From: a virus
Lineage: Duplodnaviria; Heunggongvirae; Uroviricota; Caudoviricetes
Reading direction: 5' to 3' (one strand)
Virus record (IMG/VR): IMGVR_UViG_2671180568_000004
DNA length: 54,958 nucleotides
The notes under the pieces are model-generated. The model saw only the letters and a program-made list of their open reading frames with translations. It did not search any database and was not told the DNA's origin. Position 1 is the first letter of the stretch, and each line of letters starts with the position of its first letter. The translations under genes and the position numbers were made by a program. Shown piece after piece: positions 27,680 to 45,622 of the stretch.

Positions 27680-28213
27680 TTATCTGTCGATTCCCCAGCA
27701 CGCCAGCGCGCTCTCCTGGTCACGACGGGATACCTGACCGTAACAGTTATTTGAGCGAATACGGCAGTCCCTGCCACCGTCCTTAATCCACCAGCGAATC
27801 GCCTCACACGCTCCCCTGCGATCACCTGCATTAATTCGTTTATAAAACGTCGACGGAAAACACTTACCGGGGCCAATGTTGTACGGACAGAATGACGCGA
27901 TCCCCGCTTTCTGGGGTTCACTCAATGGCACTCTGATGTTTTTCTCCACCCATGCCAGCGCCTTATCACGCTCAATGGCGTTAACCCGGTCGCATTTTTC
28001 CTTCGACAACTTCATGCCCGGAACGACAGGTTTGCCATCCACCAGGATGGCACCGCGGCAGATGGTCCAGATACCCGCGCCATCACGGTATGCCGTGGTG
28101 TGGTTACCTTCCTTTTCATCCAGAAACTGGTCGAGAATGTCAGGCGCAGGCGCACCAGCGGCAATCAGCGCCAGAACGGCAGCCGACAGGCCGTATCTGA
28201 TTTTTGCGTTCAT
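27680..28213 (-). CDS. R: SAR-type endolysin (T4-lysozyme-like)
   Basis: 177 aa; N-terminal signal-anchor-release-like segment MNAKIRYGLSAAVLALIAAGAPA; lysozyme catalytic region. Confidence 0.85.
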   Translation of the reverse strand: MNAKIRYGLSAAVLALIAAGAPAPDILDQFLDEKEGNHTTAYRDGAGIWTICRGAILVDGKPVVPGMKLSKEKCDRVNAIERDKALAWVEKNIRVPLSEPQKAGIASFCPYNIGPGKCFPSTFYKRINAGDRRGACEAIRWWIKDGGRDCRIRSNNCYGQVSRRDQESALACWGIDR

Positions 28214-28318: not shown

Positions 28319-28591
28319 ATGGACAATAACACCATTTCTCTACAGGAGTTGCTCGACAGCATTTCCAGGCTTCGGGAAGACGTGAATACCCTTACCGTCG
28401 CCTTCTCATATCTGGCATTCTCAATTCCAAGGGAACAGATGCAATCAACGCTGGCATCAATCCAGTTTGAATCATGCAATCCCAAATGGTCTCAGGAACA
28501 ACAAGACTCTTTCAGGCGGCTTGCTGTATTACTGGATGAAAAATATGCTGGTAAAATTACCATTTCGGCGGACTCTTCAGAGAACCAGTAA
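28319..28591 (+). CDS. hypothetical protein (90 aa) on the opposite strand inside the lysis cassette
   Basis: ATG with GAGGA RBS; TACAAT -10-like element upstream; no recognised domain. Confidence 0.45.
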   Translation: MDNNTISLQELLDSISRLREDVNTLTVAFSYLAFSIPREQMQSTLASIQFESCNPKWSQEQQDSFRRLAVLLDEKYAGKITISADSSENQ

Positions 28592-28901
28592 TTATTCCCG
28601 GTAGTTTTCCTCTGTAGGTTATCAACACATCCTGCGCCTCTAAAATTACGGGGCGCTTTTCCGGCGACTGCTCATCCCCTTCACATAACCCGGCAGCAAC
28701 ATCCAGGAAGACCTGTCTGATGCTTCTTCTGGCTGCTGCCTCATAAAACTCCAGCGCGGCACCTTCAACACGGTCCAGCGAGATGTCCAGGTCAAAAATT
28801 TCACCGTCAAAGCGTTTTTTGTCCCGTAACGCTAAAGTTACCGTAACTTTATTCTCAAAATTGCGGATCCCTTTCACAATCAGTTCATAGTTTTGAGTCA
28901 T
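28557..28901 (-). CDS. YdfR-like protein directly downstream of holin
   Basis: 114 aa; ATG with GGGGAGAG RBS; start region overlaps holin stop; position matches ydfR in K-12 Qin. Confidence 0.5.
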   Translation of the reverse strand: MTQNYELIVKGIRNFENKVTVTLALRDKKRFDGEIFDLDISLDRVEGAALEFYEAAARRSIRQVFLDVAAGLCEGDEQSPEKRPVILEAQDVLITYRGKLPGIITGSLKSPPKW

Positions 28902-28905: not shown

Positions 28906-29121
28906 TTACTCTCCCCGTGCCGCCTTACGACGGTCCTCTCTGATTTTGAAATACAGGTTAGTCAGATATGTCAGCAGCCCAAACAGCAGACTCCCCAGCA
29001 CGCCTATTGCCGCCCACTGAGACGGGGAAACCCTGTCCAGCAACTGCAGGAACCAGTAGCCCGTTCCCACCGCTGACGTGGTGTATGACACACCTGTTGT
29101 GATTTTTTCCATCTGGTACAT
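28906..29121 (-). CDS. S: holin (dual-start motif MYQM)
   Basis: [73 protein letters not shown] segments plus charged C-terminus. Confidence 0.85.
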
Positions 29122-29271
29122 ACCCCGTCTCCCGTTATCCGGAAGCTGACAACAATAAAAAAAGCCACCAGTTAAGTACTGATGGCTCTGATAACTCATG
29201 CAGGCATCTCAGACGACCCACTGACACTACCGGTGAGTTTAACGATACCTTCCATTTGACTGGCTCACTTT

Positions 29272-32200
29272 TTATGATGATGCCGGTGCATTTATCTCCA
29301 GCACCAGGCTGCCGATATCGACGCCATACGCTGCATTTTTGGTAATATCCGTCAGCGTCAGCGCATTCAGCCCCAGTGTCAGACTGTCTTTTATGACCTG
29401 GAATGCCGGGCCAGCCACTCCATTCAGTTTCGGAGTAACCGTGGCACTGCCGGCGGTGAACACCAGCTCCAGCGTCTGCCAGTCGTTACTGTAATTCCCG
29501 AACTCGCCCAACTTTGTGTTTCCGGCTTTCTTGTGATGCATCAGATTCAGTTTGCCGTCTGTGGTCTGGGTGAAGAACGACATCAGGAACGGGTTACCAG
29601 TCCCGGTCATCGCCACGACGTCAGGTAACGCTACATCGGTATACAGATAAATTCCCAGACCGAACTGGTTGTTGGTCAGTGCGCCTGACAGTCGAAACTT
29701 ACAGCTCAGTCTGCCACCCCGTGTCAGCAGGGAGACTGCGTCATCCACCGGATGCATCAGGGACCAGGTTTTATTGCTCTGCTTGGTAACCTTAAACACA
29801 CCATCTTCCAGCGCAACACTGCCGCCGGTGATGGTCCAGCCCTGCGCAGCAGCCTCTCCGGCTGTCGGCAGCAGGGAGACTGTACGAACGGATGTGTCAC
29901 CATCAGACGGCCCCGATGGNNNNNNNNNNCGTCAGCGCATTCAGCCCCAGTGTCAGACTGTCTTTTATGACCTGGAATGCCGGGCCAGCCACTCCATTCA
30001 GTTTCGGAGTAACCGTGGCACTGCCGGCGGTGAACACCAGCTCCAGCGTCTGCCAGTCGTTACTGTAATTCCCGAACTCGCCCAACTTTGTGTTTCCGGC
30101 TTTCTTGTGATGCATCAGATTCAGTTTGCCGTCTGTGGTCTGGGTGAAGAACGACATCAGGAACGGGTTACCAGTCCCGGTCATCGCCACGACGTCAGGT
30201 AACGCTACATCGGTATACAGATAAATTCCCAGACCGAACTGGTTGTTGGTCAGTGCGCCTGACAGTCGAAACTTACAGCTCAGTCTGCCACCCCGTGTCA
30301 GCAGGGAGACTGCGTCATCCACCGGATGCATCAGGGACCAGGTTTTATTGCTCTGCTTGGTAACCTTAAACACACCATCTTCCAGCGCAACACTGCCGCC
30401 GGTGATGGTCCAGCCCTGCGCAGCAGCCTCTCCGGCTGTCGGCAGCAGGGAGACTGTACGAACGGATGTGTCACCATCAGACGGCCCCGATGGCGTGTCG
30501 CCGCCGGGTGAGGGTTTAATCTCCGGTGCGGTACCGCTGATGAAGGCGCTGGTTCGACCAACTGCGTTCAGAATAGCGGTTGCCAGGCGATCCGAAATAA
30601 TGCCCCTGCGCGCCCATGAACTGAAATGTGTCGGACGATTTGACGATACCCAATTACCATTACTACGGGATAGCGCGCCGTAATAACCTGCATCAGCAAT
30701 ATCCGGGTCTTCTGCCGGTAAGTTGGTGGGCGTGTTGTTGCCGTTACCGTCGGTCATGAACGGCACAAAGAAAACGTTGTCGCTCTCCCTGTTTTTGTAC
30801 GCGCCGTAGACGGAGTCATACTGTGTGCCGTATGTGTTTTTCCAGTAATACGTCGTGTCGCCACAAATCCACGGTACAACTGCAGCACTGCCGCCATGGC
30901 ACTGCGCGTTAAATCCGGAAAGGTCAGTACGGAACTGCTTCAGCATGGCCGTGAACAGGTCCGGTTGCTGTGCGTAGGTGGCAGCGCTCATGTCAAATTC
31001 GCCCTGCATCCAGCACACCGCCAGCAACACATTTTTCGGGTTCTTCTGTAATGCNNNNNNNNNNGAGGGTTTAATCTCCGGTGCGGTACCGCTGATGAAG
31101 GCGCTGGTTCGACCAACTGCGTTCAGAATAGCGGTTGCCAGGCGATCCGAAATAATGCCCCTGCGCGCCCATGAACTGAAATGTGTCGGACGATTTGACG
31201 ATACCCAATTACCATTACTACGGGATAGCGCGCCGTAATAACCTGCATCAGCAATATCCGGGTCTTCTGCCGGTAAGTTGGTGGGCGTGTTGTTGCCGTT
31301 ACCGTCGGTCATGAACGGCACAAAGAAAACGTTGTCGCTCTCCCTGTTTTTGTACGCGCCGTAGACGGAGTCATACTGTGTGCCGTATGTGTTTTTCCAG
31401 TAATACGTCGTGTCGCCACAAATCCACGGTACAACTGCAGCACTGCCGCCATGGCACTGCGCGTTAAATCCGGAAAGGTCAGTACGGAACTGCTTCAGCA
31501 TGGCCGTGAACAGGTCCGGTTGCTGTGCGTAGGTGGCAGCGCTCATGTCAAATTCGCCCTGCATCCAGCACACCGCCAGCAACACATTTTTCGGGTTCTT
31601 CTGTAATGCCGCTTTGGTGCGTGCGATCAGGTCCTGATATAACGGTTTACCCACACCCCAGCGTGCCGAATCCTGGCTGGCCCCCGTGTCCGCACTGAAT
31701 GTCCCCTCCGCGCCCTGGGTGAATGCCGAACCACCACGACAGCATGGTACCAGCAGGATCCCCGCGTTATTCGGGATATACGGAAGCAGTTTTTTGGCAA
31801 TATGTAAGCCCTGGCCGACACAGCCGTACTGCCCTTTGCTCAGGTCTGCCTTCGGATGATTCAGTGCGCTCATATCCTGAACATCATGCAGGCAGTGGTC
31901 TGCCGGAATGATGTCGTTAAATGCGCATGCTTTACCACCGGGAGTCACTGTGTTGCGACGGGCCAGTTGCTTAATGCGTGGGTGGGGCGCATCGTAAGAA
32001 TCCGGAAGCGGAAGCCCTTCACCGTAAGCCATGGCATTGGATTGCCCGGCCAGTACGATGACGTAGTACCACTCCGGCTCAGTTGCACCACTGACGACCA
32101 CATCACCTTCTGCTGCAATCGCCTGCATCAGGGTATAAGGGGTTATGGCCACCGGACTACCAAACGGCTGCCAGCCCTCTTTCATTTTATGTGTCAGCTT

Positions 32201-32272
32201 TTCCGCAAGATCTGACGGCGACGCCGCCCTGACAACATCATAGTGTTTAAATGCCATGGTTCTTTCCACCAT
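29272..32272 (-). CDS. prophage sialate O-acetylesterase-like protein (NanS-p-like); coordinates inflated by two scaffold duplications
   Basis: N-terminal MAFKHYDVVRAASPSDLAEKL...; esterase block VLAGQSNAMAYGEG; real length about 623 aa after collapsing the duplicated blocks; likely start ATG at 32257. Confidence 0.6.
29920..29929. other. N10 scaffold gap; 29356..29919 repeated verbatim at 29930..30493
   Basis: read directly. Confidence 0.9.
31055..31064. other. N10 scaffold gap; 30510..31054 repeated verbatim at 31065..31609
   Basis: read directly. Confidence 0.9.
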
Positions 32273-32517
32273 CTGAAAAATGATTCTTTAAAATACCTGA
32301 CATGTAATACAGAAAAAACACAAAACCATACCTTAAATAAAAACCTCATCATCAAGCAGATATGCATGGATAAACTACAAGACGAGATATAAACCACCCT
32401 GCATTTAAATAAACAATAAACAACATCAGAAAAATAATTCTGCTCTATGGTTTACAATCAAAAATATCATTTATACTTTTCAGAACATCACCAGCAAGGC
32501 ATAAACAAGGAAACTAA

Positions 32518-32853
32518 ATGAAGTGGATTGTGATTGATACAGTTATCCAGCCATCATGCGGAATATCTTTTTCAGTCATATGGAGTAAAATAAAATTAAT
32601 AATCTGGTATCAATCGGATGCTTTCTTACCTCCTGAAAGTATATTTACACTGACTCACACAGGCATCATGCTCAATAACAAAGTGCTACCTGTAACCATT
32701 TACAACGTAGTACCATTCAATAAAACATTATGGAATTTAATCAAAAACAGCCAGGAATGCCCTACAAATACAGATAACGTATTGAATGAATGCTTTAATA
32801 ACCGTTGCACTCTGCAAATATGTCCTTATGGGCTAAAACAACAAAGTCCATAA
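32518..32853 (+). CDS. hypothetical Cys-rich protein (111 aa) in an AT-rich island
   Basis: ATG with AAGGAAA RBS; candidate promoter TTTACA-15nt-TATACT about 50 nt upstream; opposite strand to the late operon; 7 Cys. Confidence 0.4.
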
Positions 32854-32888
32854 GCAGTTTACTCACATCTGACAAAATCAATATAAAC

Positions 32889-33069
32889 AGCCCCTCCGGA
32901 GAGGGGCTGGAGAGTGGCGCTATGTGCCATTGCATGGTGCCGGGTGCCTCCCGGTGAATTCAGTACCAGCACCTGAATCCGCGATTATCCCATATACCTA
33001 CTCGCTGATTACCCCTCCGCACAGGGGGATTCACCATGCGAAATTTTTTAACAAACTTCCCGCCGGCCA
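32889..33069. repeat. copy A of a ~180-bp element (hairpin AGCCCCTCCGGAGAGGGGCT plus conserved blocks)
   Basis: shares hairpin, GCATGGTGCC.GG.GCCTCCCGGT.AATTCAG, GGGGGATTCACCATGCGA and TTTTAACAAA...GCCAGACAAT.ATC with copy B. Confidence 0.7.
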
Positions 33070-33341
33070 GACAATAATCGCCAGCCTGAATTATGAGCAA
33101 CGTGGCATTTTACGGGAAAACTGTTTTCTGCAGTAAAAAGGCCCGCCGGAGCGAGCCTGGAAGGATAGCGGTCATGTGATGCCGGTTTCCCGGTAACTCA
33201 GCATCGGTATCTGAGTCAACGTTTTCTCTACTGGGTCATTTCCGATACGTTCCGCCTTCCGGCAGACTTTCATCACGTCAGAAAATATAGCACCCTGAGT
33301 AACAGGACAGTACTCAGAATTCAGGAAACTGTGACACATCC

Positions 33342-33539
33342 TGCACAGAAAAGCCCCTCCGGAGAGGGGCTGAAGTATAGCCTAATTTCTGTCTGTCGCA
33401 TGGTGCCAGGGGCCTCCCGGTAAATTCAGCCTGTCTACTGAATTTGCATGTTCTCTGGATCATACACTTTGCCAGATGCCCCGCCGCTGAGGGGGATTCA
33501 CCATGCGATGTAATTTTTAACAAATTCTCCGGCAGCCAG
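33342..33539. repeat. copy B of the same element, same orientation
   Basis: see copy A. Confidence 0.7.
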
Positions 33540-33739
33540 ACAATCATCAAGCTGTGGAATTGTGAGGTATTTAAAAATTTCAACGGGTAACTGATACCCT
33601 GCTAATCGCCTGATGCTTTCTTTTTCAGCAACGGGAAAGCAACAACCACACACCCGCCACCAAAACACCATCAGACAGCACCGACATTATCCGGCTGCTG
33701 AAGTCCACCATCACCACCAGAAACAACAGGAGTGCAACC

Positions 33740-33786
33740 ACAGCTGCTTAGAAGGCAATTGCTCTGTCCGGCTGAGCTAACAACGC
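33740..33786 (-). pseudogene. tRNA-Arg(UCU)-like 5' fragment (acceptor, D-arm and anticodon arm only)
   Basis: GCGTTGTTAGCTCAGCCGGACAGAGCAATTGCCTTCTAAGCAGCTG resembles argU up to the anticodon loop; no canonical T-arm or 3' acceptor strand. Confidence 0.35.
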
Positions 33787-33799
33787 ATGATGCAGATAA

Positions 33800-33876
33800 T
33801 GGACCGCCATCGGGGACTTGAACCCCGCGCAGCCAGCTTCGAAGGCTGGCGCTCTATCCCGATGAGCTAATGGCGG
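33800..33876 (-). tRNA. tRNA-Arg (anticodon UCG)
   Basis: cloverleaf by eye: acceptor CCGCCAT/ATGGCGG, D-arm TAGCTCATCGGGATAGAGC, anticodon loop CTTCGAA, T-arm GGGGTTCAAGTCCCC, CCA. Confidence 0.75.
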
Positions 33877-33883
33877 TATGTGA

Positions 33884-33959
33884 TGGTGGCCCTTGCTGGA
33901 TTTGAACCAGCGACCTGGCGATTATGAGTCGCTCGCTCTCACCACTGAGCTAAAGGGCC
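33884..33959 (-). tRNA. tRNA-Ile2/Met-type (anticodon CAU), ileX/ileZ-like
   Basis: GGCCCTTTAGCTCAGTGGTGAGAGCGAGCGACTCATAATCGCCAGGTCGCTGGTTCAAATCCAGCAAGGGCCACCA; near-identical in architecture to E. coli ileX as recalled. Confidence 0.85.
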
Positions 33960-34008
33960 GGGAGCAGAATAATAATGGTGCGTAATTAATTCTGCAATCT
34001 CATCCGTT

Positions 34009-35058
34009 TCAAACGATTAAATCCTGAACTTCCCTGACTGTCTGCTCAAAACGTCCGGTCTCCAGCTCAACACCAATCGCACGACGCCCCAGTGCCATCG
34101 CCGCTTTTACCGTTGAACCCGACCCCATGAAAAAATCCGCAACCAGATCACCAGGACGACTACTTGCGCTGATTATCTGCTGCAGCATTTCTGCCGGTTT
34201 TTCGCACGGATGTTTCCCTGGATAGTACTGCACTGGTTTATACGTCCACACATCGGTGTACGGCACCTGCACCGTCACACCGAAATACCGCCGCAAATTT
34301 TTATATTCACTCAGCAGTTCCATATACTGCCGGTTCAGCTCACTGTATGTGCTGACCAGCTGGTGGTGTGGCTTTTCCAGTTCCCCGCGCTGATGTTTCT
34401 CTTCTGCCACCCGGGCAAACAGCGACTGTAATTTCAGATAATCGCTTTCATTCGGCAACTGCCACTGACCGGCACTGAACCAGTGCGACACCATGTTTTT
34501 CTTTCCTGTGGCATCTGCAATCTGTTTTGCCGTTATCCCCAGGGCTGCGCGCGCATCACGAAAGTAAGAAATCAGCGGGGCCATCACATGCTGTTTCAGT
34601 GCACTGCCCTTCGCCGCATACCCGGCATCTTTCGGACGATACGGCCCCTGATAATGTTCCGCGAACAGAATGCGCTCTGTGGCGGGGAAATACGCCCGCA
34701 GGCTTTCCTTGTTGCATCCGTTCCAGCGTCCGGACGGCTTCGCCCAGATAATATGGTTCAGCACACTGAAGCGTTCACGCATCATGATTTCGATATCAGA
34801 TGCCAGGCGATGACCACAGAACAGGTAAAGACTTCCGGCAGGTTTCAGCACCCGCCAGAACTGCGCCAGACACTGGTCCAGCCACTTCAGGTAATCATCG
34901 TCGCCCTTCCACTGGTTATCCCAGCCCTCAGGCTTCACTTTAAAGTACGGCGGGTCCGTGACTATCAGGTCAACAGAATTTTCGGGTAACGACCGGATAA
35001 ATTCCAGGCAGTCGGCGTTGATTAACTCACAACTGGATATTTTTACAGTATTAAGCAT
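34009..35058 (-). CDS. DNA N6-adenine methyltransferase (Dam-like orphan)
   Basis: 349 aa; motif IV DPPY (VTDPPYF); C-terminal SAM-binding FFMGSGST. Confidence 0.85.
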   Translation of the reverse strand: MLNTVKISSCELINADCLEFIRSLPENSVDLIVTDPPYFKVKPEGWDNQWKGDDDYLKWLDQCLAQFWRVLKPAGSLYLFCGHRLASDIEIMMRERFSVLNHIIWAKPSGRWNGCNKESLRAYFPATERILFAEHYQGPYRPKDAGYAAKGSALKQHVMAPLISYFRDARAALGITAKQIADATGKKNMVSHWFSAGQWQLPNESDYLKLQSLFARVAEEKHQRGELEKPHHQLVSTYSELNRQYMELLSEYKNLRRYFGVTVQVPYTDVWTYKPVQYYPGKHPCEKPAEMLQQIISASSRPGDLVADFFMGSGSTVKAAMALGRRAIGVELETGRFEQTVREVQDLIV

Positions 35059-35194
35059 GGATCATTAAGCCTGTCTCTGATAGGCTCATTCTGCTTTTGC
35101 GCAAAGCAGTGGGCCTGAGGTTTGCTTGTGATCCGGACGCATGAGCAGATGGCTGGTGGGTGCCCCTAACACCCACCAGCCGCCCATTTACCAC

Positions 35195-35222
35195 AAATAA
35201 AAAAGCCTTCACTGCGGAAGGC
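35195..35222 (-). terminator. rho-independent terminator
   Basis: hairpin GCCTTC-CGCAGT-GAAGGC followed by TTTTTTATTT on the minus strand. Confidence 0.6.
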
Positions 35223-35406
35223 GTCTGTAACAACCGAACTGATAGTCTGCCAGACCCGCCATAACCAGCTGAGTCAGTATTAACTGGCAGCGTTCGCGTG
35301 AAAGGTAAGTATTCTGCGCTATCTCCCCGACTGTCGCCGGGTCGGTAACGCTTAATTCATTAAACACCACTCTGGCGGTTTCTGTCATATCCTGCTGTTT
35401 TAGCAT
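35209..35406 (-). CDS. hypothetical small protein (65 aa) immediately after tR'
   Basis: ATG with AGGAAAAG RBS; stop inside the terminator stem. Confidence 0.4.
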   Translation of the reverse strand: MLKQQDMTETARVVFNELSVTDPATVGEIAQNTYLSRERCQLILTQLVMAGLADYQFGCYRRLPQ

Positions 35407-35525
35407 GTCTTTTCCTTTTCCGGTTAACGTGACACACCAATAACTCTTGTCGAAAAAGCCAGCAAGCTGAAAGACAGGTATTCACCGCCACCAGCGCGTT
35501 TACTGTACTGACGCGATTTCAGTCA

Positions 35526-35625
35526 TAAAAAACCCGCCAGGCGGCGGGGTGTAAAAAATCTTCTAACGTCAGGCATAAAACGCCCATCGTTAGAGCAAAT
35601 TTACCACAGATTCGGGAAAAATCAA
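35526..35625 (-). promoter_or_regulatory. late promoter pR'-like element and tR' terminator downstream of Q
   Basis: -35 TTGATT, 16-nt spacer, -10 TAAATT just after the Q stop; then hairpin CCCCGCCGCCTGGCGGG plus T6. Confidence 0.6.
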
Positions 35626-35630
35626 CAACA

Positions 35631-36452
35631 CTATCGCGTTACCCTCTTTAACTGCCGCTCCGCCCATGCCTCTTCAATGTCAAACCGAACCACCAACGTA
35701 TCGTAAAAGCGTTTCACTGATTTTTTCCACGTATCAAGCGTGATAGCACTCGTCACTTTGCGTATGGCATTAAATGCCTCCGTTGATGGTAGTCTTTCAC
35801 AGCCACGACCACCACAACGCTGGCAGTCTCTGATAACAGGCATACCACGTTTTACCGACTCTTCACGATGAATGGCGACACCACGCCCACGGCAATCCTT
35901 ACAGGCGGTGGAAACCTCACCCTTTCCGCCACACTCCGGACAGGCAACTTTTACCACCTCCCTGACTTTTTTCCATTCTTCCCAGTAAGACGGATACACA
36001 CCTTTCGTACACTTTGCCCATACCGGCGGCTTACCATCCGGATACTGGACCTTGTTTGTAAAAACCTCGCTTTCAATAAATTTTTTTCCGTGACAGCAGG
36101 AGCACTGTTTTTTGCTCGCCGCGCTACGGGCATAATCTTCAAACGCATACGAAGCCATAATACGCATCACTGCCGGTTTTATTTCTGCCGGGAGTTTTCT
36201 TAACGCCGCCACGCGATCACACCGACTGAGTGCATATTCTGTCAGCAATTCTGTTGCCCGCTCTCTGTCATTCATACTAATGCCCATTTTCCCAAGGAAC
36301 GCAGAAAACCCCATCTCAGCCCGATTCTGTGTCATGCCCTGCGCGGCCATCACATCAGTGATACTCAGCGCATCTTTCGACGTTGAGGCCGATGCATCAG
36401 TCAGGCCGGGGGATTTTGGGGAGTAGTATTTCGGTAAATCTTCCAGTTTCAT
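35631..36452 (-). CDS. Q: late antiterminator Q (Cys-rich, zinc-binding type)
   Basis: 273 aa; multiple CxxC pairs; sits between rusA and the pR'/tR' element. Confidence 0.75.
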   Translation of the reverse strand: MKLEDLPKYYSPKSPGLTDASASTSKDALSITDVMAAQGMTQNRAEMGFSAFLGKMGISMNDRERATELLTEYALSRCDRVAALRKLPAEIKPAVMRIMASYAFEDYARSAASKKQCSCCHGKKFIESEVFTNKVQYPDGKPPVWAKCTKGVYPSYWEEWKKVREVVKVACPECGGKGEVSTACKDCRGRGVAIHREESVKRGMPVIRDCQRCGGRGCERLPSTEAFNAIRKVTSAITLDTWKKSVKRFYDTLVVRFDIEEAWAERQLKRVTR

Positions 36453-36829
36453 TTTTTGACCTGCTCTTCATGCATTATGGGGTAAATCTTCACCCCCATA
36501 CGTCCACCAGATACTGGCTGACCACGAACGATATTGATTTCATCAAACTGCTCATCGTCCATTAACACTCCCGCATGCGTCAGCGCATCCAGCGGTGCTT
36601 TCAGGATATTGTCCAGGTCGCGACGACGCTTATCCGGTGGCTCTGCAATCACCTTTATCGCCAGCCTTCCGGACAGGCTTAATTTCAGCCGCTGCTGGCG
36701 AACAATAAGCGCCACAGCCCGGCGATAACGCTTTCCCTCCTCCGAGATAAAATATGTGCTGCCACGGCGTCGCCAGTAAGTGTTCACCGTTGGCGGGTAA
36801 GGCAAAACAAATTCTATGCGTTCAGTCAT
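36449..36829 (-). CDS. rusA: Holliday junction resolvase RusA
   Basis: 126 aa; MTERIEFVLPYPPTVNTYWRRRG...DLDNILKAPLDALTHAGVLMDDEQ. Confidence 0.9.
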   Translation of the reverse strand: MTERIEFVLPYPPTVNTYWRRRGSTYFISEEGKRYRRAVALIVRQQRLKLSLSGRLAIKVIAEPPDKRRRDLDNILKAPLDALTHAGVLMDDEQFDEINIVRGQPVSGGRMGVKIYPIMHEEQVKK

Positions 36830-37885
36830 TTATGCTTTCCACTTCAGAACACCCGAATTTCTCGCGTGCATTAAAAAACGAATCAGCAACAACAGCTGGC
36901 TGCCGTGTTTTTCTTCAAAATCTTTTACCCCGGCGTGTAGTTCGCTATGGCATTTACGGCACAGCGGAATAACAAACAAATCATCAGCCTTTGTTCCCAT
37001 CCCTCCCAGTCCATGACCAATGATGTGATGCGGATCATCTGCCTGATTGCCACACGTCATGCATTTCTGCGTTTTTACCCAACGCGTGTATACAGGCATC
37101 TCTTCCCGTTGTGATTTCTGGCGCTGGAGATACTGAGCCGGTGACTCCGGATCAACGGCAATGCTGACCACCGTCTTTTCCTGTGGCGGGTTTTGCTGGT
37201 GAGCGTGAGGCAGCGGCGCAAGATTTTTTGTGCGCTGCTTCAGTATGCTGGTGGCGGTCTGCTCTCCCGGTACGATGTCGCTTTCACGGTACATTGAGCG
37301 GATTTTTTCCGCACGCAACCCCAGCGAACGACGTAATACCGCTTCCGGTAGCGCGTCCGCCACCTGATTGCGGACCGCCCACCAGGATAATTCAGCCAGC
37401 GATAATTCCCGTTCCTGCGAGCCATTCATTGCATGGCGTATGACGTCAATCATCCATGCAGACAGGTTTTGGTGAGCAAGTTGCCCGAGTGATTCGGAGG
37501 TCTGGTCGCGCAGTTGGTTGTCGCAGTGCCAGCACAACACCATTGCGCCGGTACCATAACGGTGAATGACGGTTTCACTGTGGTGATAATCGCCGTGTGG
37601 CCACTGGCAGGATTTAACATGGCGCAGTAACCAGTCAGACAATGCGCCAGCGCCACCAGCAGCACGAATCACTCGTTCGTCGCTGAAAAATGGCAGTAAT
37701 GATTTATCCTCCGCCAGCGGCTGGCGAACGGCAGGAACGACCCCGGACGGCAGATTACGCATGCTTTTCGGTTCCGGCTCCACCAGTACCCGGGTATTGT
37801 GGAATACCGGCATGGATTCACGGCCCGGCTTAACGATCACCAGCCCGAGTTCCGGTACCAGAACAGGTCGAAGTAATACCCGCAC
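36830..37885 (-). CDS. DUF968-like nin-region protein with C-terminal HNH-like Cys/His motif
   Basis: 351 aa; GTG start with GGAGGT RBS; CMTCGNQADDPHHI...CRKCHSELH. Confidence 0.65.
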   Translation of the reverse strand: MRVLLRPVLVPELGLVIVKPGRESMPVFHNTRVLVEPEPKSMRNLPSGVVPAVRQPLAEDKSLLPFFSDERVIRAAGGAGALSDWLLRHVKSCQWPHGDYHHSETVIHRYGTGAMVLCWHCDNQLRDQTSESLGQLAHQNLSAWMIDVIRHAMNGSQERELSLAELSWWAVRNQVADALPEAVLRRSLGLRAEKIRSMYRESDIVPGEQTATSILKQRTKNLAPLPHAHQQNPPQEKTVVSIAVDPESPAQYLQRQKSQREEMPVYTRWVKTQKCMTCGNQADDPHHIIGHGLGGMGTKADDLFVIPLCRKCHSELHAGVKDFEEKHGSQLLLLIRFLMHARNSGVLKWKA

Positions 37886-37886
37886 G

Positions 37887-38159
37887 TTACCTCCAGATGC
37901 GTTGCTGGAATGTGCGGGACGGACGCGGTGGGCGTTCAGAGTAAGGAAGCCTGACGGAGATTATCCAGTGACGATAATCGAGGCTGAGGGCTTTCTTAAT
38001 CTCGTATCCGCGTCTGCGGTAGTTATGAATTAGCCATTCGGCCTGTTCTTCAGTACATGGTGGGTGTTGGTACCAGTCGGTTTTAAATGCGTGTGAACGC
38101 CGCCCATGCCGGATGGCAAGGTCGGTATCAGAATTGTGAAATTTGGTTTTGTGCGCCAT
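37887..38159 (-). CDS. hypothetical nin-region protein (90 aa)
   Basis: ORF track; family uncertain. Confidence 0.45.
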   Translation of the reverse strand: MAHKTKFHNSDTDLAIRHGRRSHAFKTDWYQHPPCTEEQAEWLIHNYRRRGYEIKKALSLDYRHWIISVRLPYSERPPRPSRTFQQRIWR

Positions 38160-38229
38160 CTGTTTTCTCTGCTGGCGCAGCAGGTGTCAGGTGTTCAGGC
38201 TGACGTGCGAATTGTAAACCAGAATGCCA

Positions 38230-38258
38230 GAAAAAAACAAAACCCGCCGAAGCGGGTT
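38230..38258 (-). terminator. rho-independent terminator downstream of hok
   Basis: hairpin AACCCGC-TTCG-GCGGGTT followed by TTTTGTTTTTTT on the minus strand. Confidence 0.6.
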
Positions 38259-38326
38259 AAGTGCGGGTGCGTTGAGGATGCCTGACACATCAGAGGTGGC
38301 GAGGGATTTCTCCCCCGCCCGGTCTC

Positions 38327-38482
38327 TTACTCCTCAGGTTCGTAAGCTGTGAAGACAGCGACCTCCGTCTGGCCGGTTCGGATTCGTACCTCGCAGAGGT
38401 CTTTCCTCGTTACCAGTGCCGTCACTATGACGGTTAAACAGATGACGATCAGGGCGATTAGCATCGCCTTTTGCTGCTTCAT
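38327..38482 (-). CDS. hok: Hok/Gef-family type I toxin (51 aa)
   Basis: MKQQKAMLIALIVICLTVIVTALVTRKDLCEVRIRTGQTEVAVFTAYEPEE; in-frame upstream extension to 38539 may be a mok-like frame. Confidence 0.85.
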   Translation of the reverse strand: MKQQKAMLIALIVICLTVIVTALVTRKDLCEVRIRTGQTEVAVFTAYEPEE

Positions 38483-38773
38483 AGCCTGCTTCTCCTTGCC
38501 TTTCGGCACGTAAGAGGCTAACCTACGTGTGTAGAGCATAGATATGGCCTCAGATTAATGTTAAGCGTCTTGCCGGACGCGTAATGTTAACTGGGGCTTT
38601 TCTCTATCTGCCTTTTGGTGTTCATGCCTGAGACAGATAGCCTCAAGCACCCGCTGCAATTCTACTTAACTCTCCTTTTCCCGCAAACCGTTTTTATCCC
38701 CAGCGGCAAATCGAATACACCACCAGCGCCACCGCCATCGCAATTCCTACCGTTGTTAATGCTTCAGGCCAGC

Positions 38774-39676
38774 TCATTGATTCACCTCCTGCGGCGGTTC
38801 TGGTAGCGGCATCCAGTGTGACGGTTTCCACGACGCACCAGGAATTATCCACCCATCATTAGCGTCAGGATGCCCGGGGATGTAAGTAGCCCATTTCATT
38901 CGCCAGTCACCTTTCCTGTCAAACTCCACGGCAACAAGAACGGCTGTTTTGGTATTCGGCATTCGCTCACTACAGCTTATCCAACCATCCGGAGTTGCCG
39001 GAGAGTTGCCCGATAGTGCATTCTGCTCCAGTGATGCTTTTACAAACCACGCTGCCTGAACTATAACGCCATGAATCCAGCGCAAATCAGCATCGCGATC
39101 TTTCTTTTTCATCTTTTCGCCACTTAAGGCCTTGCTTATGTGGCTGCGTACCAGGTCTTCATGTAATTCCTTCGCCTCCTCAATGGTGAAACCACCAGGC
39201 AGAAGAGCCGGAGTTACCGGAGAGCTGGTTGACGCTTCCGGGATTTCCCGAAAATTATTGGTTGACGAATTCTTGCTTTCCCGAAAGTTTCCGGACTGAA
39301 GCATGGCGGTGCGGCAGGAGTTCCATATTTCGGCAGCAATATCGCGCTCGCTATCGGTTAATTTGTACGTGGAAACATAGCCAGAGAGCATTTCTACGTT
39401 TTCCGGAGTTGCTTCTTCCGGCACTACCGGCGCTGGCGGGGCGATGCGTCCAAGCAACTTATTTACCTCTTTCGCCATCGCGTCATATTTATCTAAATGG
39501 CGATTAGCTTCTAAGCAGACTCGGCGCATCTGATCTGAGTTAACTCGTTTAACTGGATCTGCTTCCAGCGATGCCAGCGCAATCCGTGCCAGTTCCATTT
39601 GTTCACCACGGGTAAGCCCGTTTTCAAGCGGATTTTTAATGAACAATTCAATACGTTCTTTGGTAATAGTGGTCAT
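38774..39676 (-). CDS. DUF551-like domain protein
   Basis: 300 aa; C-terminal WISCSERMPNTKTAVLVAVEF...WKPSHWMPLPEPP. Confidence 0.55.
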   Translation of the reverse strand: MTTITKERIELFIKNPLENGLTRGEQMELARIALASLEADPVKRVNSDQMRRVCLEANRHLDKYDAMAKEVNKLLGRIAPPAPVVPEEATPENVEMLSGYVSTYKLTDSERDIAAEIWNSCRTAMLQSGNFRESKNSSTNNFREIPEASTSSPVTPALLPGGFTIEEAKELHEDLVRSHISKALSGEKMKKKDRDADLRWIHGVIVQAAWFVKASLEQNALSGNSPATPDGWISCSERMPNTKTAVLVAVEFDRKGDWRMKWATYIPGHPDANDGWIIPGASWKPSHWMPLPEPPQEVNQ

Positions 39677-39686
39677 GTGTTACTCC

Positions 39687-39950
39687 TTAACCCGCAGTGC
39701 TTTCAACTGATGAGGGGAACAAAATCTTTTCATCAAACCCTGCATTCATATCATGAACAGCAACACACCAATCCATCGACGAACGATTATCAAGAGCCTC
39801 CATGATTTCATCCATGCGGCGCAGGTCATACAGGTAAATGCTTTTATCGCCAATGGTGTAAAAACCAATTTTTTTCGGTGATGGACAGCGATCAAGAACG
39901 TCCTGTAATTCGCTCAACCATGCTTGTTCTTTTTTTGTCAAAGTTGCCAT
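39687..39950 (-). CDS. hypothetical nin-region protein (87 aa)
   Basis: ATG with AAGGAGAG RBS embedded in a conserved junction sequence. Confidence 0.5.
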   Translation of the reverse strand: MATLTKKEQAWLSELQDVLDRCPSPKKIGFYTIGDKSIYLYDLRRMDEIMEALDNRSSMDWCVAVHDMNAGFDEKILFPSSVESTAG

Positions 39951-39951
39951 A

Positions 39952-40443: not shown

Positions 40444-40445
40444 TC

Positions 40446-40805: not shown

Positions 40806-40970
40806 TCATCGCCCCACTCATCACAATATGCTTCGACCGGTGTTTTCCCTGCTTCATAATCATCACGCCATGCTTCAGCATCAGCGGCACTTCCACCGCG
40901 TAACTCTGCATAATCCATTAACAGTTCATGCCATTCTTCAAAACTGGCGTTATATTTAGTTGAACCAAAA

Positions 40971-42112: not shown

Positions 42113-42183
42113 GTAAGCGTACAGCCTGAACCGTCTGGTCAGAATCTGACGAATTAGACAAAGTGGTGTCCACCAAATAAGTA

Positions 42184-42585
42184 GTGGGAACCAAAGTGTC
42201 AGATATGCAGAAAAATGTGACTCCCGGCAGGCGAAAAGGCTGCCCTAATTATCCTCCCGAATTTAAACAGCAGCTCGTTGCTGCCTCCTGTGAACCCGGG
42301 ATATCCATCTCAAAACTTGCTCTTGAAAATGGCATTAACGCCAATCTGTTGTTCAAATGGCGACAACAATGGCGCGAGGGAAAGCTGCTATTACCTTCTT
42401 CAGAGAGCCCCCAGCTACTTCCTGTGACTCTCGATGCAACTGCCGAACAGCCAGAATCGCTCGCAGAGGACCCGGAAACCCTCAGTATCAGCTGTGAGGT
42501 AACGTTCCGGCACGGGACGCTCCGCTTCAATGGCAATGTCAGCGAAAAGCTCCTGACTCTGCTGATACAGGAACTGAAGCGATGA
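42184..42585 (+). CDS. IS66-family accessory protein (first ORF)
   Basis: 133 aa; HTH-like N-terminus; a partial duplicate lies at 41945..42102 before the gap. Confidence 0.8.
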   Translation: MGTKVSDMQKNVTPGRRKGCPNYPPEFKQQLVAASCEPGISISKLALENGINANLLFKWRQQWREGKLLLPSSESPQLLPVTLDATAEQPESLAEDPETLSISCEVTFRHGTLRFNGNVSEKLLTLLIQELKR

Positions 42586-42929
42586 TCCCGTTACCTTCCG
42601 GGACCAAAATTTGGCTGGTTGCCGGTATCACCGATATGAGAAATGGCTTCAACGGCCTGGCTGCGAAAGTACAGACGGCGCTGAAAGACGATCCCATGTC
42701 CGGCCATGTTTTCATTTTCCGGGGCCGCAGCGGCAGTCAGGTTAAACTGCTGTGGTCCACCGGTGACGGGCTGTGCCTCCTGACCAAACGGCTGGAGCGT
42801 GGGCGCTTCGCCTGGCCGTCAGCCCGTGATGGCAAAGTGTTCCTTACGCAGGCGCAGCTGGCGATGCTGCTGGAAGGTATCGACTGGCGACAGCCCAAGC
42901 GGCTGCTGACCTCCCTGACCATGCTGTAA
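42582..42929 (+). CDS. IS66-family TnpB-like protein (second ORF)
   Basis: 115 aa; overlaps the first ORF by 4 nt. Confidence 0.8.
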   Translation: MIPLPSGTKIWLVAGITDMRNGFNGLAAKVQTALKDDPMSGHVFIFRGRSGSQVKLLWSTGDGLCLLTKRLERGRFAWPSARDGKVFLTQAQLAMLLEGIDWRQPKRLLTSLTML

Positions 42930-42978
42930 ATCTCTTTATCCTGGTTGTCACAGAATAAGCCCGGTAAAATACGGGCTT

Positions 42979-43841
42979 ATGAACGACATCTCTTCTGACG
43001 ACATCTTCCTGCTGAAACAGCGCCTGGCCGAACAGGAAGCGCTGATCCACGCCCTGCAGGAAAAGCTGAGCAACCGGGAGCGCGAAATAGACCATCTGCA
43101 GGCGCAGCTGGATAAACTCCGCCGGATGAACTTCGGCAGTCGTTCCGAAAAAGTCTCCCGCCGTATCGCACAAATGGAAGCCGATCTGAACCGGCTTCAG
43201 AAAGAGAGCGATACGCTGACTGGTAGGGTGTATGACCCGGCAGTACAGCGTCCGTTGCGTCAGACCCGCACCCGTAAGCCGTTCCCTGAATCACTACCCC
43301 GTGACGAAAAGCGACTGTTGCCTGCGGCGCCGTGCTGCCCGAACTGCGGCGGTTCACTGAGCTATCTGGGCGAGGATACCGCCGAACAGCTGGAGTTGAT
43401 GCGTAGCGCCTTCCGGGTTATCCGGACGGTACGGGAAAAACATGCCTGTACTCAGTGCGATGCCATCGTGCAGGCACCTGCACCTTCGCGGCCCATCGAG
43501 CGGGGTATCGCCGGACCGGGGCTGCTGGCCCGCGTGCTGACCTCGAAGTATGCAGAGCACACCCCGCTGTATCGCCAGTCAGAAATATACGGCCGGCAAG
43601 GTGTGGAGCTGAGCCGTTCACTGCTGTCGGGCTGGGTGGATGCATGCTGCCGGCTGCTGTCTCCGCTGGAAGAGGCGCTTCATGGCTATGTCATGACTGA
43701 CGGCAAACTCCATGCCGATGATACCCCGGTCCAGGTACTGCTGCCGGGTAATAAGAAGACGAAGACCGGGCGGTTGTGGGCGTATGTTCGTGATGACCGC
43801 AATGCCGGGTCAGCGTTGGCACCTGCAGTGTGGTTCGCTTA
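42979..43841 (+). CDS. IS66-family transposase, 5' part (continues at 45633 in this scaffold)
   Basis: zinc-finger CCPNCGG...CTQCD and coiled-coil N-terminus; sequence 43738..43841 reappears at 45633..45736. Confidence 0.75.
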
Positions 43842-43879
43842 GGGGTCTGACGCTCAGTGGAACGAAAACTCACGTTAAG
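43842..43879. repeat. Tn3-family 38-bp terminal inverted repeat
   Basis: GGGGTCTGACGCTCAGTGGAACGAAAACTCACGTTAAG read directly. Confidence 0.85.
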
Positions 43880-45177
43880 CAACGTTTTCTGCCTCTGACG
43901 CCTCTTTTAATGGTCTCAGATGTCCTTTGGTCACCAGTTCTGCCAGCGTGAAGGAATAATGGCCGAGCATATTGATATGTCCGTGGCAAAGCGGGGAGAG
44001 GCGTGCGATATCTTCATCATTCAGTGTTTCACCCTGCGCCCGGAGATGATCCAGGGCTGCCTGCATATAAATAGTGTTCCATAACACGACGGCGTTAGTG
44101 ACCAGCCCCAGTGTGCCCAGTTGATCTTCCTGACCGTCGGTATATCGTTTTCTTATCTCACCTTTTTGACCGTGACAGATGGCTCTGGCAACGGCATGGC
44201 GACTTTCTCCCCGATTAAGCTGGGTCAGAATGCGCCGGCGGTAATCTTCATCATCAATATAATTAAGCAGATACAGCGTTTTGTTGATGCGCCCCACTTC
44301 AATGATTGCCTGAGTCAGTCCGGAAGGACGTTCACTTTTCAGCAATGAACGGACCAGCACTGAAACCTGTACTTTGCCCAGCTTCAGGGAGCCAGCGGTC
44401 CGGATCATTTCGTCCCACTGAAGGACTATTTTTCGGGGATCTGATTGCCCTCTGGCAATATCATTCAGCACGCCATAGTCGGCATCATGGTCCATTCGCC
44501 AGAAAACCGAAGCACCGGCATCAGCCAGGCGTGGAGAAAACTGGTATCCCAGCAGCCAGAAAAGGCCAAAGACAAGTTCGCTGGCACCTGCTGTATCGGT
44601 CATAATTTCGGTTGGATTCAGCCCGGTCTCCTGTTCCAGAAGACCTTCCAGCACAAAGATAGAGTCCCTCAGCGTCCCCGGTATAACGATGCCATGAAAG
44701 CCGGAATACTGATCGGACACAAAGTTGTACCAGGTGATCCCTCTGTTATTACCAAAGTATTTGCGGTTCGGTCCGGCATTGATTGTTCTGACTGGCGTAA
44801 CAAAGCGCATTCCATCTGCAGATGCCACTTCTCCTCCACCCCATATCTGTGCCAGTGGCAGCGTTGCCTGAAAATCAACCAGTCTGGCATTAGCGCTGGT
44901 GATAGTTTCAGCCCGCAGATAGTTCGCTTTTGTCCAGTTCAGCCGGTGTCGGGTCAGTGCAGGAACATTTGATCTGATCAGTGGTTCCAGACCGATATTG
45001 CAGGCTTCAGCCATCAGCACGGCGCTGATGCTGACGGGCAGATCATCAACTCTGGCACTGGCTTCACTAGCATGGAAAAACTCATCAGCAAATCCGGTAT
45101 GGGCGTTAATTTCGAGCAGCAACTCCGTTAAATCCACCGGAGGGAGTAGATCACTGATCATTTTGCTCAGTCGTTTC
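43875..45177 (-). pseudogene. tnpA: Tn3-family transposase, C-terminal ~435 aa only (5'-truncated by IS26)
   Basis: stop lies within the IR as in Tn3; 5' end abuts the IS26 end. Confidence 0.8.
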
Positions 45178-45622
45178 GGCACTGTTGCAAATAGTCGGTG
45201 GTGATAAACTTATCATCCCCTTTTGCTGATGGAGCTGCACATGAACCCATTCAAAGGCCGGCATTTTCAGCGTGACATCATTCTGTGGGCCGTACGCTGG
45301 TACTGCAAATACGGCATCAGTTACCGTGAGCTGCAGGAGATGCTGGCTGAACGCGGAGTGAATGTCGATCACTCCACGATTTACCGCTGGGTTCAGCGTT
45401 ATGCGCCTGAAATGGAAAAACGGCTGCGCTGGTACTGGCGTAACCCTTCCGATCTTTGCCCGTGGCACATGGATGAAACCTACGTGAAGGTCAATGGCCG
45501 CTGGGCGTATCTGTACCGGGCCGTCGACAGCCGGGGCCGCACTGTCGATTTTTATCTCTCCTCCCGTCGTAACAGCAAAGCTGCATACCGGTTTCTGGGT
45601 AAAATCCTCAACAACGTGAAGA
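45178..45622 (+). mobile_element. IS26 left end and partial transposase (cut off by N10)
   Basis: IR GGCACTGTTGCAAA at 45178; MNPFKGRHFQRDIILWAVRWYCKYGISYRELQEM... matches IS26 transposase. Confidence 0.85.

What the first reader, a model, noticed from the sequence alone, without database searches (positions are those of the whole stretch)
29356..31609. Esterase gene inflated by two verbatim duplications at N10 runs
After each N10 run the sequence restarts 545-564 bp upstream of the gap. Collapsing the overlaps yields a single uninterrupted ~623-aa esterase ORF. As annotated the gene looks disrupted or fused when it probably is not. Multi-copy esterase genes in prophages are a plausible cause of contig breaks.
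Basis: seen in the sequence. Interest (0 to 1): 0.45.

Follow-up and report, generated by a model that had tools for sequence, protein, structure and literature searches.

The report
Assembly-join artefact in prophage esterase gene
The two "duplications" are not biology: three overlapping draft-assembly contigs were glued end to end with 10-N spacers, inflating an ordinary, already well-known prophage sialic-acid esterase gene (NanS-p type) from 1.9 kb to 3.0 kb.

Summary
N10 runs lie at 29920-29929 and 31055-31064. After each, the sequence restarts 564 bp and 545 bp upstream with zero mismatches. Removing the overlaps gives one open 623-aa ORF (618 aa from the start codon that the RefSeq annotation uses). 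The window is 100% identical over 20.7 kb and 8.8 kb to the finished E. coli PCN033 chromosome, where the same 3101-bp stretch occupies only 1972 bp and holds a single 618-aa gene. Neither hypothetical duplication junction occurs in 5,426 complete E. coli genomes. The collapsed continuity occurs in 546 of them. The cause is visible: PCN033 carries a second, 97.65%-identical esterase gene in a P2-like prophage, and all four contig ends abut bases where the two copies differ. The other two N10 runs in the window behave likewise at an ISEc8 element, and one join drags in a misplaced plasmid contig. The gene is a typical NanS-p-type 9-O-acetyl-sialate esterase (DUF1737 + NanS-like SGNH esterase + lectin-like C-terminal domain) just upstream of the phage lysis cassette. 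This is an artefact of low interest, useful only as an annotation warning.

The parts
29272..32272 (-). As-written span of the nanS-p-type esterase gene, including both artefactual inserts. The true gene is 1872 bp from ATG 32272, or 1857 bp from ATG 32257.
29356..29919 (.). Overlap 1, left copy: the last 564 bp of contig A. It encodes residues 404-591 (618-aa numbering) of the C-terminal lectin-like domain.
   Evidence: It equals the exact-identity block L001 20157-20720 shared by the two PCN033 paralogues.
29920..29929 (.). N10 spacer 1, the contig A / contig B join.
29930..30493 (.). Overlap 1, right copy: the first 564 bp of contig B. Redundant; remove it when collapsing.
30494..30509 (.). 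The only 16 bases present solely in bridging contig B (residues 398-403, linker). The haplotype is a mosaic: lambdoid-copy allele at its first base and P2-copy allele (T) at its last base.
30510..31054 (.). Overlap 2, left copy: the last 545 bp of contig B. It encodes residues 217-398, the C-terminal half of the esterase domain.
31055..31064 (.). N10 spacer 2, the contig B / contig C join.
31065..31609 (.). Overlap 2, right copy: the first 545 bp of contig C. Redundant; remove it when collapsing.
32108..32251 (-). DUF1737 N-terminal domain (residues 3-50).
   Evidence: Pfam PF08410, E=2.3e-15; coordinates
30566..32083 (-). NanS-like SGNH/SASA esterase domain (residues 59-379). The raw coordinates span artefactual insert 2. 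The GQSN serine motif starts at residue 71 and the RPTHF histidine motif at residue 356.
   Evidence: 3PT5 match, E=7.9e-125; Pfam SASA
29287..29865 (-). C-terminal lectin-like domain (DUF6645; residues 422-614).
   Evidence: 6YP6 NanS-p C-terminal domain, E=3.9e-30; Pfam PF20350
28906..29199 (-). P21-type holin S, immediately downstream of the esterase gene. The annotated CDS in PCN033 corresponds to 28906-29121.
   Evidence: Pfam PF04971, E=2.3e-32
27680..28213 (-). Phage lysozyme R of the lysis cassette.
   Evidence: Pfam PF00959
41874..42341 (.). Third join of the same kind: 41874-42102 equals 42113-42341 (229 bp, exact) around N10 42103-42112, at the left end of ISEc8.
42113..45622 (.). 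Contig D is plasmid-derived (truncated ISEc8, Tn3-family transposase fragment, start of IS26) and is misplaced inside the chromosomal prophage. It is followed by N10 45623-45632. 43738-43841 is repeated at 45633-45736.

Best explanation
The window is a pseudo-scaffold in which draft-assembly contigs were put in order and joined with fixed 10-N spacers without trimming their overlapping ends. Inside the esterase gene three contigs meet. Contig A ends at 29919, contig B is 29930-31054, and contig C starts at 31065. The genome carries a second, nearly identical esterase gene in another prophage. The assembler extended each contig through the shared sequence and stopped at the first base where the two copies differ. 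Neighbouring contigs therefore each contain the whole shared block (564 bp and 545 bp), and end-to-end concatenation writes those blocks twice. The real gene is a single 1.86-1.87 kb nanS-p-type gene. Its parts are an N-terminal DUF1737 domain (reported as a capsid-binding domain in phage phi24B), a NanS-like SGNH esterase domain that removes the 9-O-acetyl group from sialic acid, and a C-terminal lectin-like carbohydrate-binding domain. The gene sits in a lambdoid prophage late region directly upstream of the holin-lysozyme lysis cassette. Shown here: the overlaps, the collinearity with finished genomes, the coincidence of contig ends with paralogue differences, and the domain homologies. Inferred: which assembler or scaffolder behaved this way, and the enzyme activity of this particular allele.
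For: The overlaps at the N10 runs are exact. The window is 100.000% identical to the finished E. coli PCN033 chromosome over 9200-29919 and 45633-54434. All extra length lies at the N10 joins. The 3101-bp query spans 1972 bp (3101 - 574 - 555) in every listed complete genome. The collapsed gene differs from PCN033 at 2 of 1972 bases. PCN033 annotates one 618-aa CDS there. A 50-nt probe across duplication junction 1 finds nothing in 5,426 complete genomes. A 54-nt probe across junction 2 gives only 29-nt half matches, and none spans the junction. The collapsed-continuity control is found full length in 546 genomes. The second paralogue in a P2-like prophage of PCN033 aligns without gaps over 1660 bp at 97.65%. 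The differences between the copies fall at L001 positions 20156, 20721, 20736 and 21282. Contig B spans 20157-21281, contig A ends at 20720 and contig C starts at 20737, so 4 of 4 contig ends abut a discriminating base. With 39 differing positions in 1660 bp, the chance expectation is about (39/1660)^4, roughly 3e-7 (my calculation). The other two N10 joins also lie at a repeat (ISEc8), and one brings in a contig that is 99.94% identical over all 3510 bp to plasmid p3PCN033. The protein cluster holds many 'partial' members of 442-591 aa, so this gene often ends contigs in drafts. Family identity rests, with literature in PMC10462455 and bioRxiv 10.64898/2026.04.10.717836.
Against: No reads from this particular assembly were available, so the single-copy state is shown in a near-identical finished genome and in thousands of other genomes, not in this isolate itself. 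The window is not base-for-base the finished PCN033 sequence. It has A at 30672 = 31227 (L344) where both PCN033 copies have T, and the L344 protein is absent from a collection of about 15 billion proteins. Contigs B and C both run through one PCN033 paralogue difference (L001 20958) without stopping, so a simple 'stop at the first disagreement' rule needs that site to be monomorphic in this strain, or tolerated by the assembler. The start of the last contig (45633 = L001 33171) does not abut any chromosome-versus-plasmid ISEc8 difference that I could identify.
Confidence: 0.97

Rival explanations
1. The duplications are genuine. The strain carries two real tandem duplications (about 0.55 kb each) inside the esterase gene, and the N10 runs merely mark places the assembler could not resolve.
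For: Only the face value of the sequence supports this: the second insert (555 bp including the Ns) happens to keep the reading frame.
Against: Each N run sits exactly at the repeat junction, and the copies are 100% identical. The junctions are absent from 5,426 complete genomes, while the collapsed continuity is common. A finished genome that is 100% identical in the flanks has one copy. The contig ends coincide with paralogue differences. The first insert would frameshift the gene. The same pattern occurs at an unrelated IS element in the window.
Confidence: 0.01
2. The middle contig B belongs to the other paralogue (the P2-like prophage copy) and was misplaced here by homology, as plasmid contig D was. 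In that case the collapsed gene would be a chimera of two loci rather than a faithful reconstruction.
For: B is bounded on both sides by paralogue differences, so it is the shared-repeat contig. It carries the P2-copy allele T at L001 20736. A misplaced homologous contig is proven elsewhere in the window.
Against: B carries the lambdoid-copy alleles at 20721 and 20958. It has 2 mismatches to copy 1 and 3 to copy 2. Only 16 bases of the collapsed gene come from B alone, and the single foreign allele is synonymous. So even if B is a merged consensus of both copies, the collapsed protein is unaffected.
Confidence: 0.3
3. The N10 runs are database masking of real sequence rather than contig joins.
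For: Some collections mask short stretches with N (stated in the tool description).
Against: Masking replaces bases and cannot create 545-564 bp exact re-starts. Alignment to PCN033 shows no sequence missing at the Ns, only sequence written twice.
Confidence: 0.005

Closest known systems
NanS-p, the prophage-encoded sialate 9-O-acetylesterase of lambdoid and Stx phages (933W L0105; phi24B vb_24B_21 / gp84)
   Same: It has the same three-domain architecture: DUF1737, a NanS-like SASA/SGNH esterase and a lectin-like C-terminal domain. It occupies the same position directly upstream of the P21-type holin S and downstream of the Q antiterminator and phage tRNAs. It is multi-copy within a genome: median 2 and up to 13 places per genome. 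Its block IV motif RPTH is the variant reported for the Stx2a prophage 86 allele.
   Different: No stx genes lie upstream; an iraM-like gene occupies that slot. The protein is shorter (618 aa, against the 636-657 aa reported for Stx-phage alleles outside Stx2a phages and 645 aa for the commonest Stx2a-phage allele). Its C-terminal domain is a divergent variant. Of the four aromatic residues proposed to bind carbohydrate in phi24B (Y510, Y515, Y540, F611), the aligned residues here are F, Y, F and L (read from the alignment). The host phage is a long-tailed lambda/HK97-like prophage, not a phi24B-type podovirus.
Chromosomal NanS (YjhS) of E. coli, PDB 3PT5
   Same: The esterase domain aligns over 321 residues with E=7.9e-125, including the GQSN serine motif and the H-F-S-S histidine motif.
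   Different: NanS lacks both the DUF1737 N-terminal domain and the lectin-like C-terminal domain, and it is not phage-borne.
Reference-ordered draft pseudo-molecules with fixed-length N spacers (a generic assembly artefact)
   Same: The spacers are a fixed N10. The suffix of each left contig equals the prefix of the right contig. Breaks lie at dispersed repeats (prophage paralogues and IS elements). A homologous contig from another replicon is misplaced.
   Different: Nothing differs in kind. The unusual neatness is that contig ends stop exactly one base short of each paralogue difference.

Membership tests
Contig-join artefact (overlapping contig ends concatenated with an N spacer) | A fixed-length N run sits exactly at the repeat junction. 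| tested here: met
   There are four runs, each of exactly 10 N. Three are flanked by exact suffix/prefix overlaps of 564, 545 and 229 bp.
Contig-join artefact (overlapping contig ends concatenated with an N spacer) | A finished genome of the same or a near-identical strain is collinear with the collapsed version, not the as-written one. | tested here: met
   The PCN033 chromosome is 100% identical in the flanks, and 3101 bp maps onto 1972 bp.
Contig-join artefact (overlapping contig ends concatenated with an N spacer) | Contig ends coincide with the boundaries of dispersed repeats in the genome. | tested here: met
   4 of 4 contig ends in the gene abut bases that distinguish the lambdoid and P2-like prophage paralogues. 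The other joins lie at ISEc8 and IS26.
Contig-join artefact (overlapping contig ends concatenated with an N spacer) | No reads span the apparent duplication junctions in this isolate. | not testable with these tools
   No read data were available. As a proxy, the junctions are absent from 5,426 complete genomes, with a positive control.
Genuine tandem duplication | A continuous junction sequence (end of the unit followed by the start of the unit) exists in real DNA. | tested here: not met
   Junction probes gave no hit or only half-probe hits in the complete genomes. In the window itself the junction is only ever bridged by Ns.
NanS-p prophage sialate O-acetylesterase | N-terminal DUF1737 domain. 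| tested here: met
   PF08410, E=2.3e-15, residues 3-50.
NanS-p prophage sialate O-acetylesterase | Central NanS-like SASA/SGNH esterase domain with the block I serine (GQSN) and the block IV histidine (RxxH). | tested here: met
   3PT5, E=7.9e-125. GQSN starts at residue 71 and RPTHF at residue 356, and both align to the corresponding NanS motifs. The block description comes from PMC10462455. The assignment of this Ser and His as the catalytic pair is from my own recollection of the NanS structure paper and was not checked here.
NanS-p prophage sialate O-acetylesterase | C-terminal lectin-like jelly-roll domain homologous to the phi24B NanS-p C-terminal domain. | tested here: met
   6YP6, E=3.9e-30 over residues 422-614; Pfam DUF6645.
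NanS-p prophage sialate O-acetylesterase | The four aromatic residues of the proposed carbohydrate-binding site are conserved. | tested here: inconclusive
   The aligned residues are F, Y, F and L, against Y510, Y515, Y540 and F611. Three of four stay aromatic (read from the alignment; residue list).
NanS-p prophage sialate O-acetylesterase | Location in the late region of a lambdoid prophage, between Q/tRNAs and the holin S gene. | tested here: met
   A P21-type holin, DUF1327 and lysozyme lie directly downstream. The antiterminator, tRNA genes and iraM lie upstream.
NanS-p prophage sialate O-acetylesterase | Deacetylates 5-N-acetyl-9-O-acetyl neuraminic acid. | not testable with these tools
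   This needs an enzyme assay. It is inferred from about 70% identity to the NanS catalytic domain (my estimate from the alignment).

The most novel reading that the evidence does not exclude
The bridging haplotype (C at 30494, T at 30509) and the private L344 codon could be real rather than consensus or draft errors. That would imply a short gene-conversion tract between the lambdoid and the P2-like prophage esterase paralogues in this isolate. More generally, the two paralogues share about 99% identical esterase and lectin modules but only 33% identical DUF1737 modules. This would fit recent exchange of the enzymatic cassette between unrelated phage types while each keeps its own capsid-anchoring N-terminus.
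Probability: 0.15. Interest if true: 0.2.

Novelty: not a real feature. Interest (0 to 1): 0.06.

Why it matters
It matters only as quality control. Taken at face value, the window would yield a false 789-aa 'fused' esterase plus a 175-aa fragment, or a pseudogene call. It would also give a prophage about 3.3 kb too long. Worse, it places a Tn3/IS26-bearing plasmid fragment apparently inside a prophage, which could be misread as a phage carrying plasmid or resistance-associated mobile DNA. Any scan of such pseudo-scaffolds should collapse exact suffix/prefix overlaps at fixed-length N runs before calling genes or repeats. The underlying gene is an ordinary member of the well-studied NanS-p family.

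Tried and rejected
(1) I scanned viral contigs for the as-written N10 join to identify the source record and found no match. (2) I scanned genome contigs (species representatives) for the mosaic bridge sequence and found no match, so neither the source nor an independent occurrence turned up. (4) An exact look-up of the collapsed L344 protein showed it is not in the collection, whereas the Q344 form is on 188 contigs. The private substitution therefore could not be validated. (5) My first design of the junction-1 probe (27+27 nt) was rejected because the true sequence shares 3 bases beyond the junction on one side and 1 on the other, which would have allowed a 28-mer seed in normal genomes. 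I used a 24+26 nt probe instead. (6) I fetched the PCN033 prophage region at 2.71 Mb to look for the second copy, and it holds no esterase gene. The copy is in the P2-like prophage at 1.0 Mb. (7) I considered database masking as the origin of the Ns and rejected it. I did not run structure prediction, large protein searches or a metagenome scan, because the question was settled without them.

Full report
OBSERVATION. The window contains four runs of exactly ten N: 29920-29929, 31055-31064, 42103-42112 and 45623-45632. For the two runs in the finding, the sequence after the gap is an exact restart of sequence before it. 29356-29919 equals 29930-30493 (564 bp, 0 mismatches), and 30510-31054 equals 31065-31609 (545 bp, 0 mismatches) (visible directly). 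The piece between the two N runs (29930-31054, 1125 bp) therefore has only 16 bases of its own, 30494-30509. As written, the minus strand gives a 789-aa ORF containing X runs (29903..32272) and a separate 175-aa ORF (29272..29799). The second insert (10 N + 545 = 555 bp) keeps the frame, while the first (574 bp) shifts it. Removing 29920-30493 and 31055-31609 gives a single open frame of 623 aa from ATG 32272, or 618 aa from ATG 32257, ending at 29272. That is 1872 bp instead of 3001 bp.

WHAT THE GENE IS. The collapsed protein has three domains. DUF1737 covers residues 3-50 (E=2.3e-15), the SASA carbohydrate-esterase domain matches with E=5e-13, and DUF6645 covers residues 468-578 (E=2.1e-19). 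Against solved structures, residues 59-379 match E. coli NanS/YjhS, the 9-O-acetyl-N-acetylneuraminic acid esterase (3PT5, E=7.9e-125). The GQSN serine motif (from residue 71) and the R-x-x-H-F-S-S histidine motif (RPTHF from residue 356) are both aligned. Residues 422-614 match the crystallised C-terminal domain of phage phi24B NanS-p (6YP6, E=3.9e-30). Directly downstream on the same strand lie a P21-type holin S (28906-29199), a DUF1327/YdfR protein (28557-28901) and a phage lysozyme (27680-28213). Upstream lie an iraM-like gene (32518-32853, + strand), two tRNA genes (33800-33959), a DNA methyltransferase and the late antiterminator. This is the canonical nanS-p slot of lambdoid phages. 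The literature describes NanS-p as DUF1737 + catalytic SASA + a variable, lectin-like C-terminal region, present in Stx and non-Stx prophages, with the SGNH block motifs shared with NanS. The block IV variant RPTH seen here is reported there for one Stx2a prophage allele (PMC10462455). A 2026 preprint reports that in phi24B the DUF1737 domain of this esterase is a capsid-decoration domain (bioRxiv 10.64898/2026.04.10.717836). The gene is thus an ordinary member of a known family, and no stx genes are present.

WHAT THE DUPLICATIONS ARE. A megablast of window 29200-32300 (3101 bp) against 5,426 complete E. coli genomes gave matches at 99.6-99.9% identity. In these, the query is covered in three overlapping pieces and the record span is 1972 bp in all 15 listed rows. 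3101 - 574 - 555 = 1972. The best record, the finished chromosome of porcine ExPEC strain PCN033 (CP006632), annotates one 618-aa CDS there (WP_047938340.1) within a lambdoid prophage. Aligning the whole window to that locus shows 100.000% identity over window 9200-29919 (20,720 bp) and 45633-54434 (8,802 bp), and one mismatch in 31065-42102 (11,038 bp). Every extra base in the window lies at an N10 join. The collapsed gene region differs from PCN033 at 2 of 1972 positions.

DIRECT TEST OF A REAL TANDEM DUPLICATION. I built short probes across each hypothetical junction with the Ns removed. Each half was shorter than the 28-base megablast seed, so only DNA that truly contains the junction can be found. 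The junction-1 probe had to be trimmed to 24+26 nt, because the true sequence by chance shares a few bases beyond the junction. Junction 1 gave no match in any complete genome. Junction 2 gave 108 records, all matching only 29 nt of one half, and none covered 80% or more of the probe. The control probe across the collapsed continuity was found full length in 546 genomes. The PCN033 paper states that its genome was finished from 454/Newbler contigs with PCR-based gap closure (PMC4578781). The many other genomes at complete-genome level give the same 1972-bp span.

WHY THE CONTIGS BROKE HERE. The prophage list in the PCN033 supplement led to a second esterase gene in a P2-like prophage (L002 18834-20714, 626 aa, between the lysis genes and the tail genes). 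It aligns without gaps to the lambdoid copy over 1660 bp at 97.65%. Around the finding, the positions that differ between the two copies are L001 20156, 20721, 20736, 20958 and 21282, and the exact-identity block 20157-20720 is 564 bp long. In the same coordinates, contig A ends at 20720, contig B spans 20157-21281 and contig C starts at 20737. Overlap 1 is thus exactly the 564-bp block shared by the paralogues. Overlap 2 is bounded by the differences at 20736 and 21282. All four contig ends stop one base short of a paralogue difference. With 39 differing positions in 1660 bp, the chance of four such coincidences is about 3e-7 (my calculation). The most economical mechanism is an assembler that extends each contig until the reads disagree, followed by ordering of contigs and concatenation with N10 without trimming overlaps. 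Which programs were used is not recoverable from the sequence. Two further results support it: homologous places per genome have a median of 2 and reach 13, and the protein's 90% cluster contains many members labelled 'partial' (442-591 aa).

THE ARTEFACT IS SYSTEMATIC. The third N10 run (42103-42112) has a 229-bp exact overlap at the left end of an ISEc8 (IS66-family) element. The piece after it, contig D (42113-45622), matches the chromosomal ISEc8 for only 1729 bp with 6 mismatches and then diverges. Its tail encodes a Tn3-family transposase fragment. All 3510 bp of contig D match plasmid p3PCN033 at 99.94% (truncated ISEc8, Tn3 fragment, IS26), and it ends 445 bp into IS26. A plasmid contig has therefore been placed inside the chromosomal prophage by IS homology. 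This identifies the window as a homology-ordered pseudo-scaffold and is independent support for the artefact reading.

RESIDUAL DETAILS. The 16-base bridge carries the lambdoid-copy allele at its first base and the P2-copy allele (T, 30509) at its last. This combination occurs in none of the 546 genomes that hold the region and not in the species-representative genome collection. The change is synonymous. The window also has A at 30672 = 31227 where both PCN033 copies have T, giving L344 instead of Q344. The L344 protein is absent from a collection of about 15 billion proteins, while the Q344 form is on 188 contigs. These are most simply consensus or draft errors, or private SNPs. A real gene-conversion tract cannot be excluded without reads. 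Contigs B and C both pass the PCN033 paralogue difference at L001 20958 without breaking. The start of the last contig (45633 = L001 33171) does not abut a chromosome-versus-plasmid difference. I leave both unexplained.

COMPARISON AND VERDICT. The gene meets every sequence-testable defining feature of NanS-p: three domains, catalytic motifs and genomic slot. Enzyme activity cannot be tested here, and three of the four proposed sugar-binding aromatic positions remain aromatic. The 'duplications' meet every testable criterion of a contig-join artefact and fail the one criterion of a real tandem duplication. The feature is not real biology and interest is low (0.06). Its value is as a warning for annotation of N-spaced pseudo-scaffolds.

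Noticed in passing
window 41874-42341 (N10 at 42103-42112): A third join of the same kind. 41874-42102 is repeated exactly at 42113-42341 (229 bp), at the left end of an ISEc8 (IS66-family) element inserted in the prophage early region.
   Followed up: yes
window 42113-45622 (then N10 45623-45632; 43738-43841 = 45633-45736): This 3510-bp contig is 99.94% identical over its full length to plasmid p3PCN033 (truncated ISEc8, Tn3-family transposase fragment, first 445 bp of IS26). It matches the chromosomal locus for only 1729 bp. It is a plasmid contig misplaced inside the prophage, so about 1.8 kb of the window does not belong here. The true chromosomal ISEc8 interior (L001 31775-33170) is represented only by its plasmid paralogue, with 6 SNPs.
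   Followed up: yes
window 30494-30509, and 30672 = 31227: The bridge 16-mer mixes alleles of the two esterase paralogues (C...T), a combination found in none of 5,426 complete genomes. The A at 30672 = 31227 gives L344, and that protein is absent from about 15 billion public proteins. These are likely consensus or draft errors, but real gene conversion or private SNPs are not excluded.
   Followed up: partly
L002 18834-20714 (PCN033 P2-like prophage) versus window 29272-32257: A second nanS-p-type gene sits in a P2-like (myovirus) prophage between the Rz1-like lysis gene and the tail genes. Its linker and lectin-like domain are 100% identical, and its esterase domain 97.5% identical, to the lambdoid copy. 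Its DUF1737 region is only 33% identical. Given the recent report that DUF1737 anchors the esterase to the phi24B capsid, this looks like exchange of the enzymatic cassette between unrelated phages, with each keeping its own N-terminal module.
   Followed up: partly
window 32518-32853 (+) and 33800-33959 (-): Where Stx phages carry stxAB (between the phage tRNAs and nanS-p), this prophage has an iraM-like anti-adapter gene on the opposite strand. It gave no Pfam hit and is named from the PCN033 annotation. The two tRNAs are Arg(tcg) and a CAT-anticodon tRNA. ARAGORN calls the second one Met, while the RefSeq annotation calls it Ile.
   Followed up: partly
window 18673-19266: A tandem repeat with a 162-bp period (54 codons), 3.3 copies at 95% (up to about 3.7 copies at lower identity), lies inside the long CDS annotated as portal protein in PCN033 (L001 9008-11593). 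It is present identically in the finished genome, so it is real and not an assembly artefact.
   Followed up: no
window 45633 (= L001 33171): The last contig starts 104 bp before the point where the plasmid and chromosomal ISEc8 copies diverge, and it does not abut any chromosome-versus-plasmid SNP. This contig end is not explained by the 'stop at the first paralogue difference' rule. Further ISEc8 copies in the genome may account for it.
   Followed up: no
protein cluster of the esterase: The 90%-identity cluster (1558 members) contains many entries labelled 'partial' (442-591 aa). This gene is a recurrent contig-end in E. coli draft assemblies generally.
   Followed up: no
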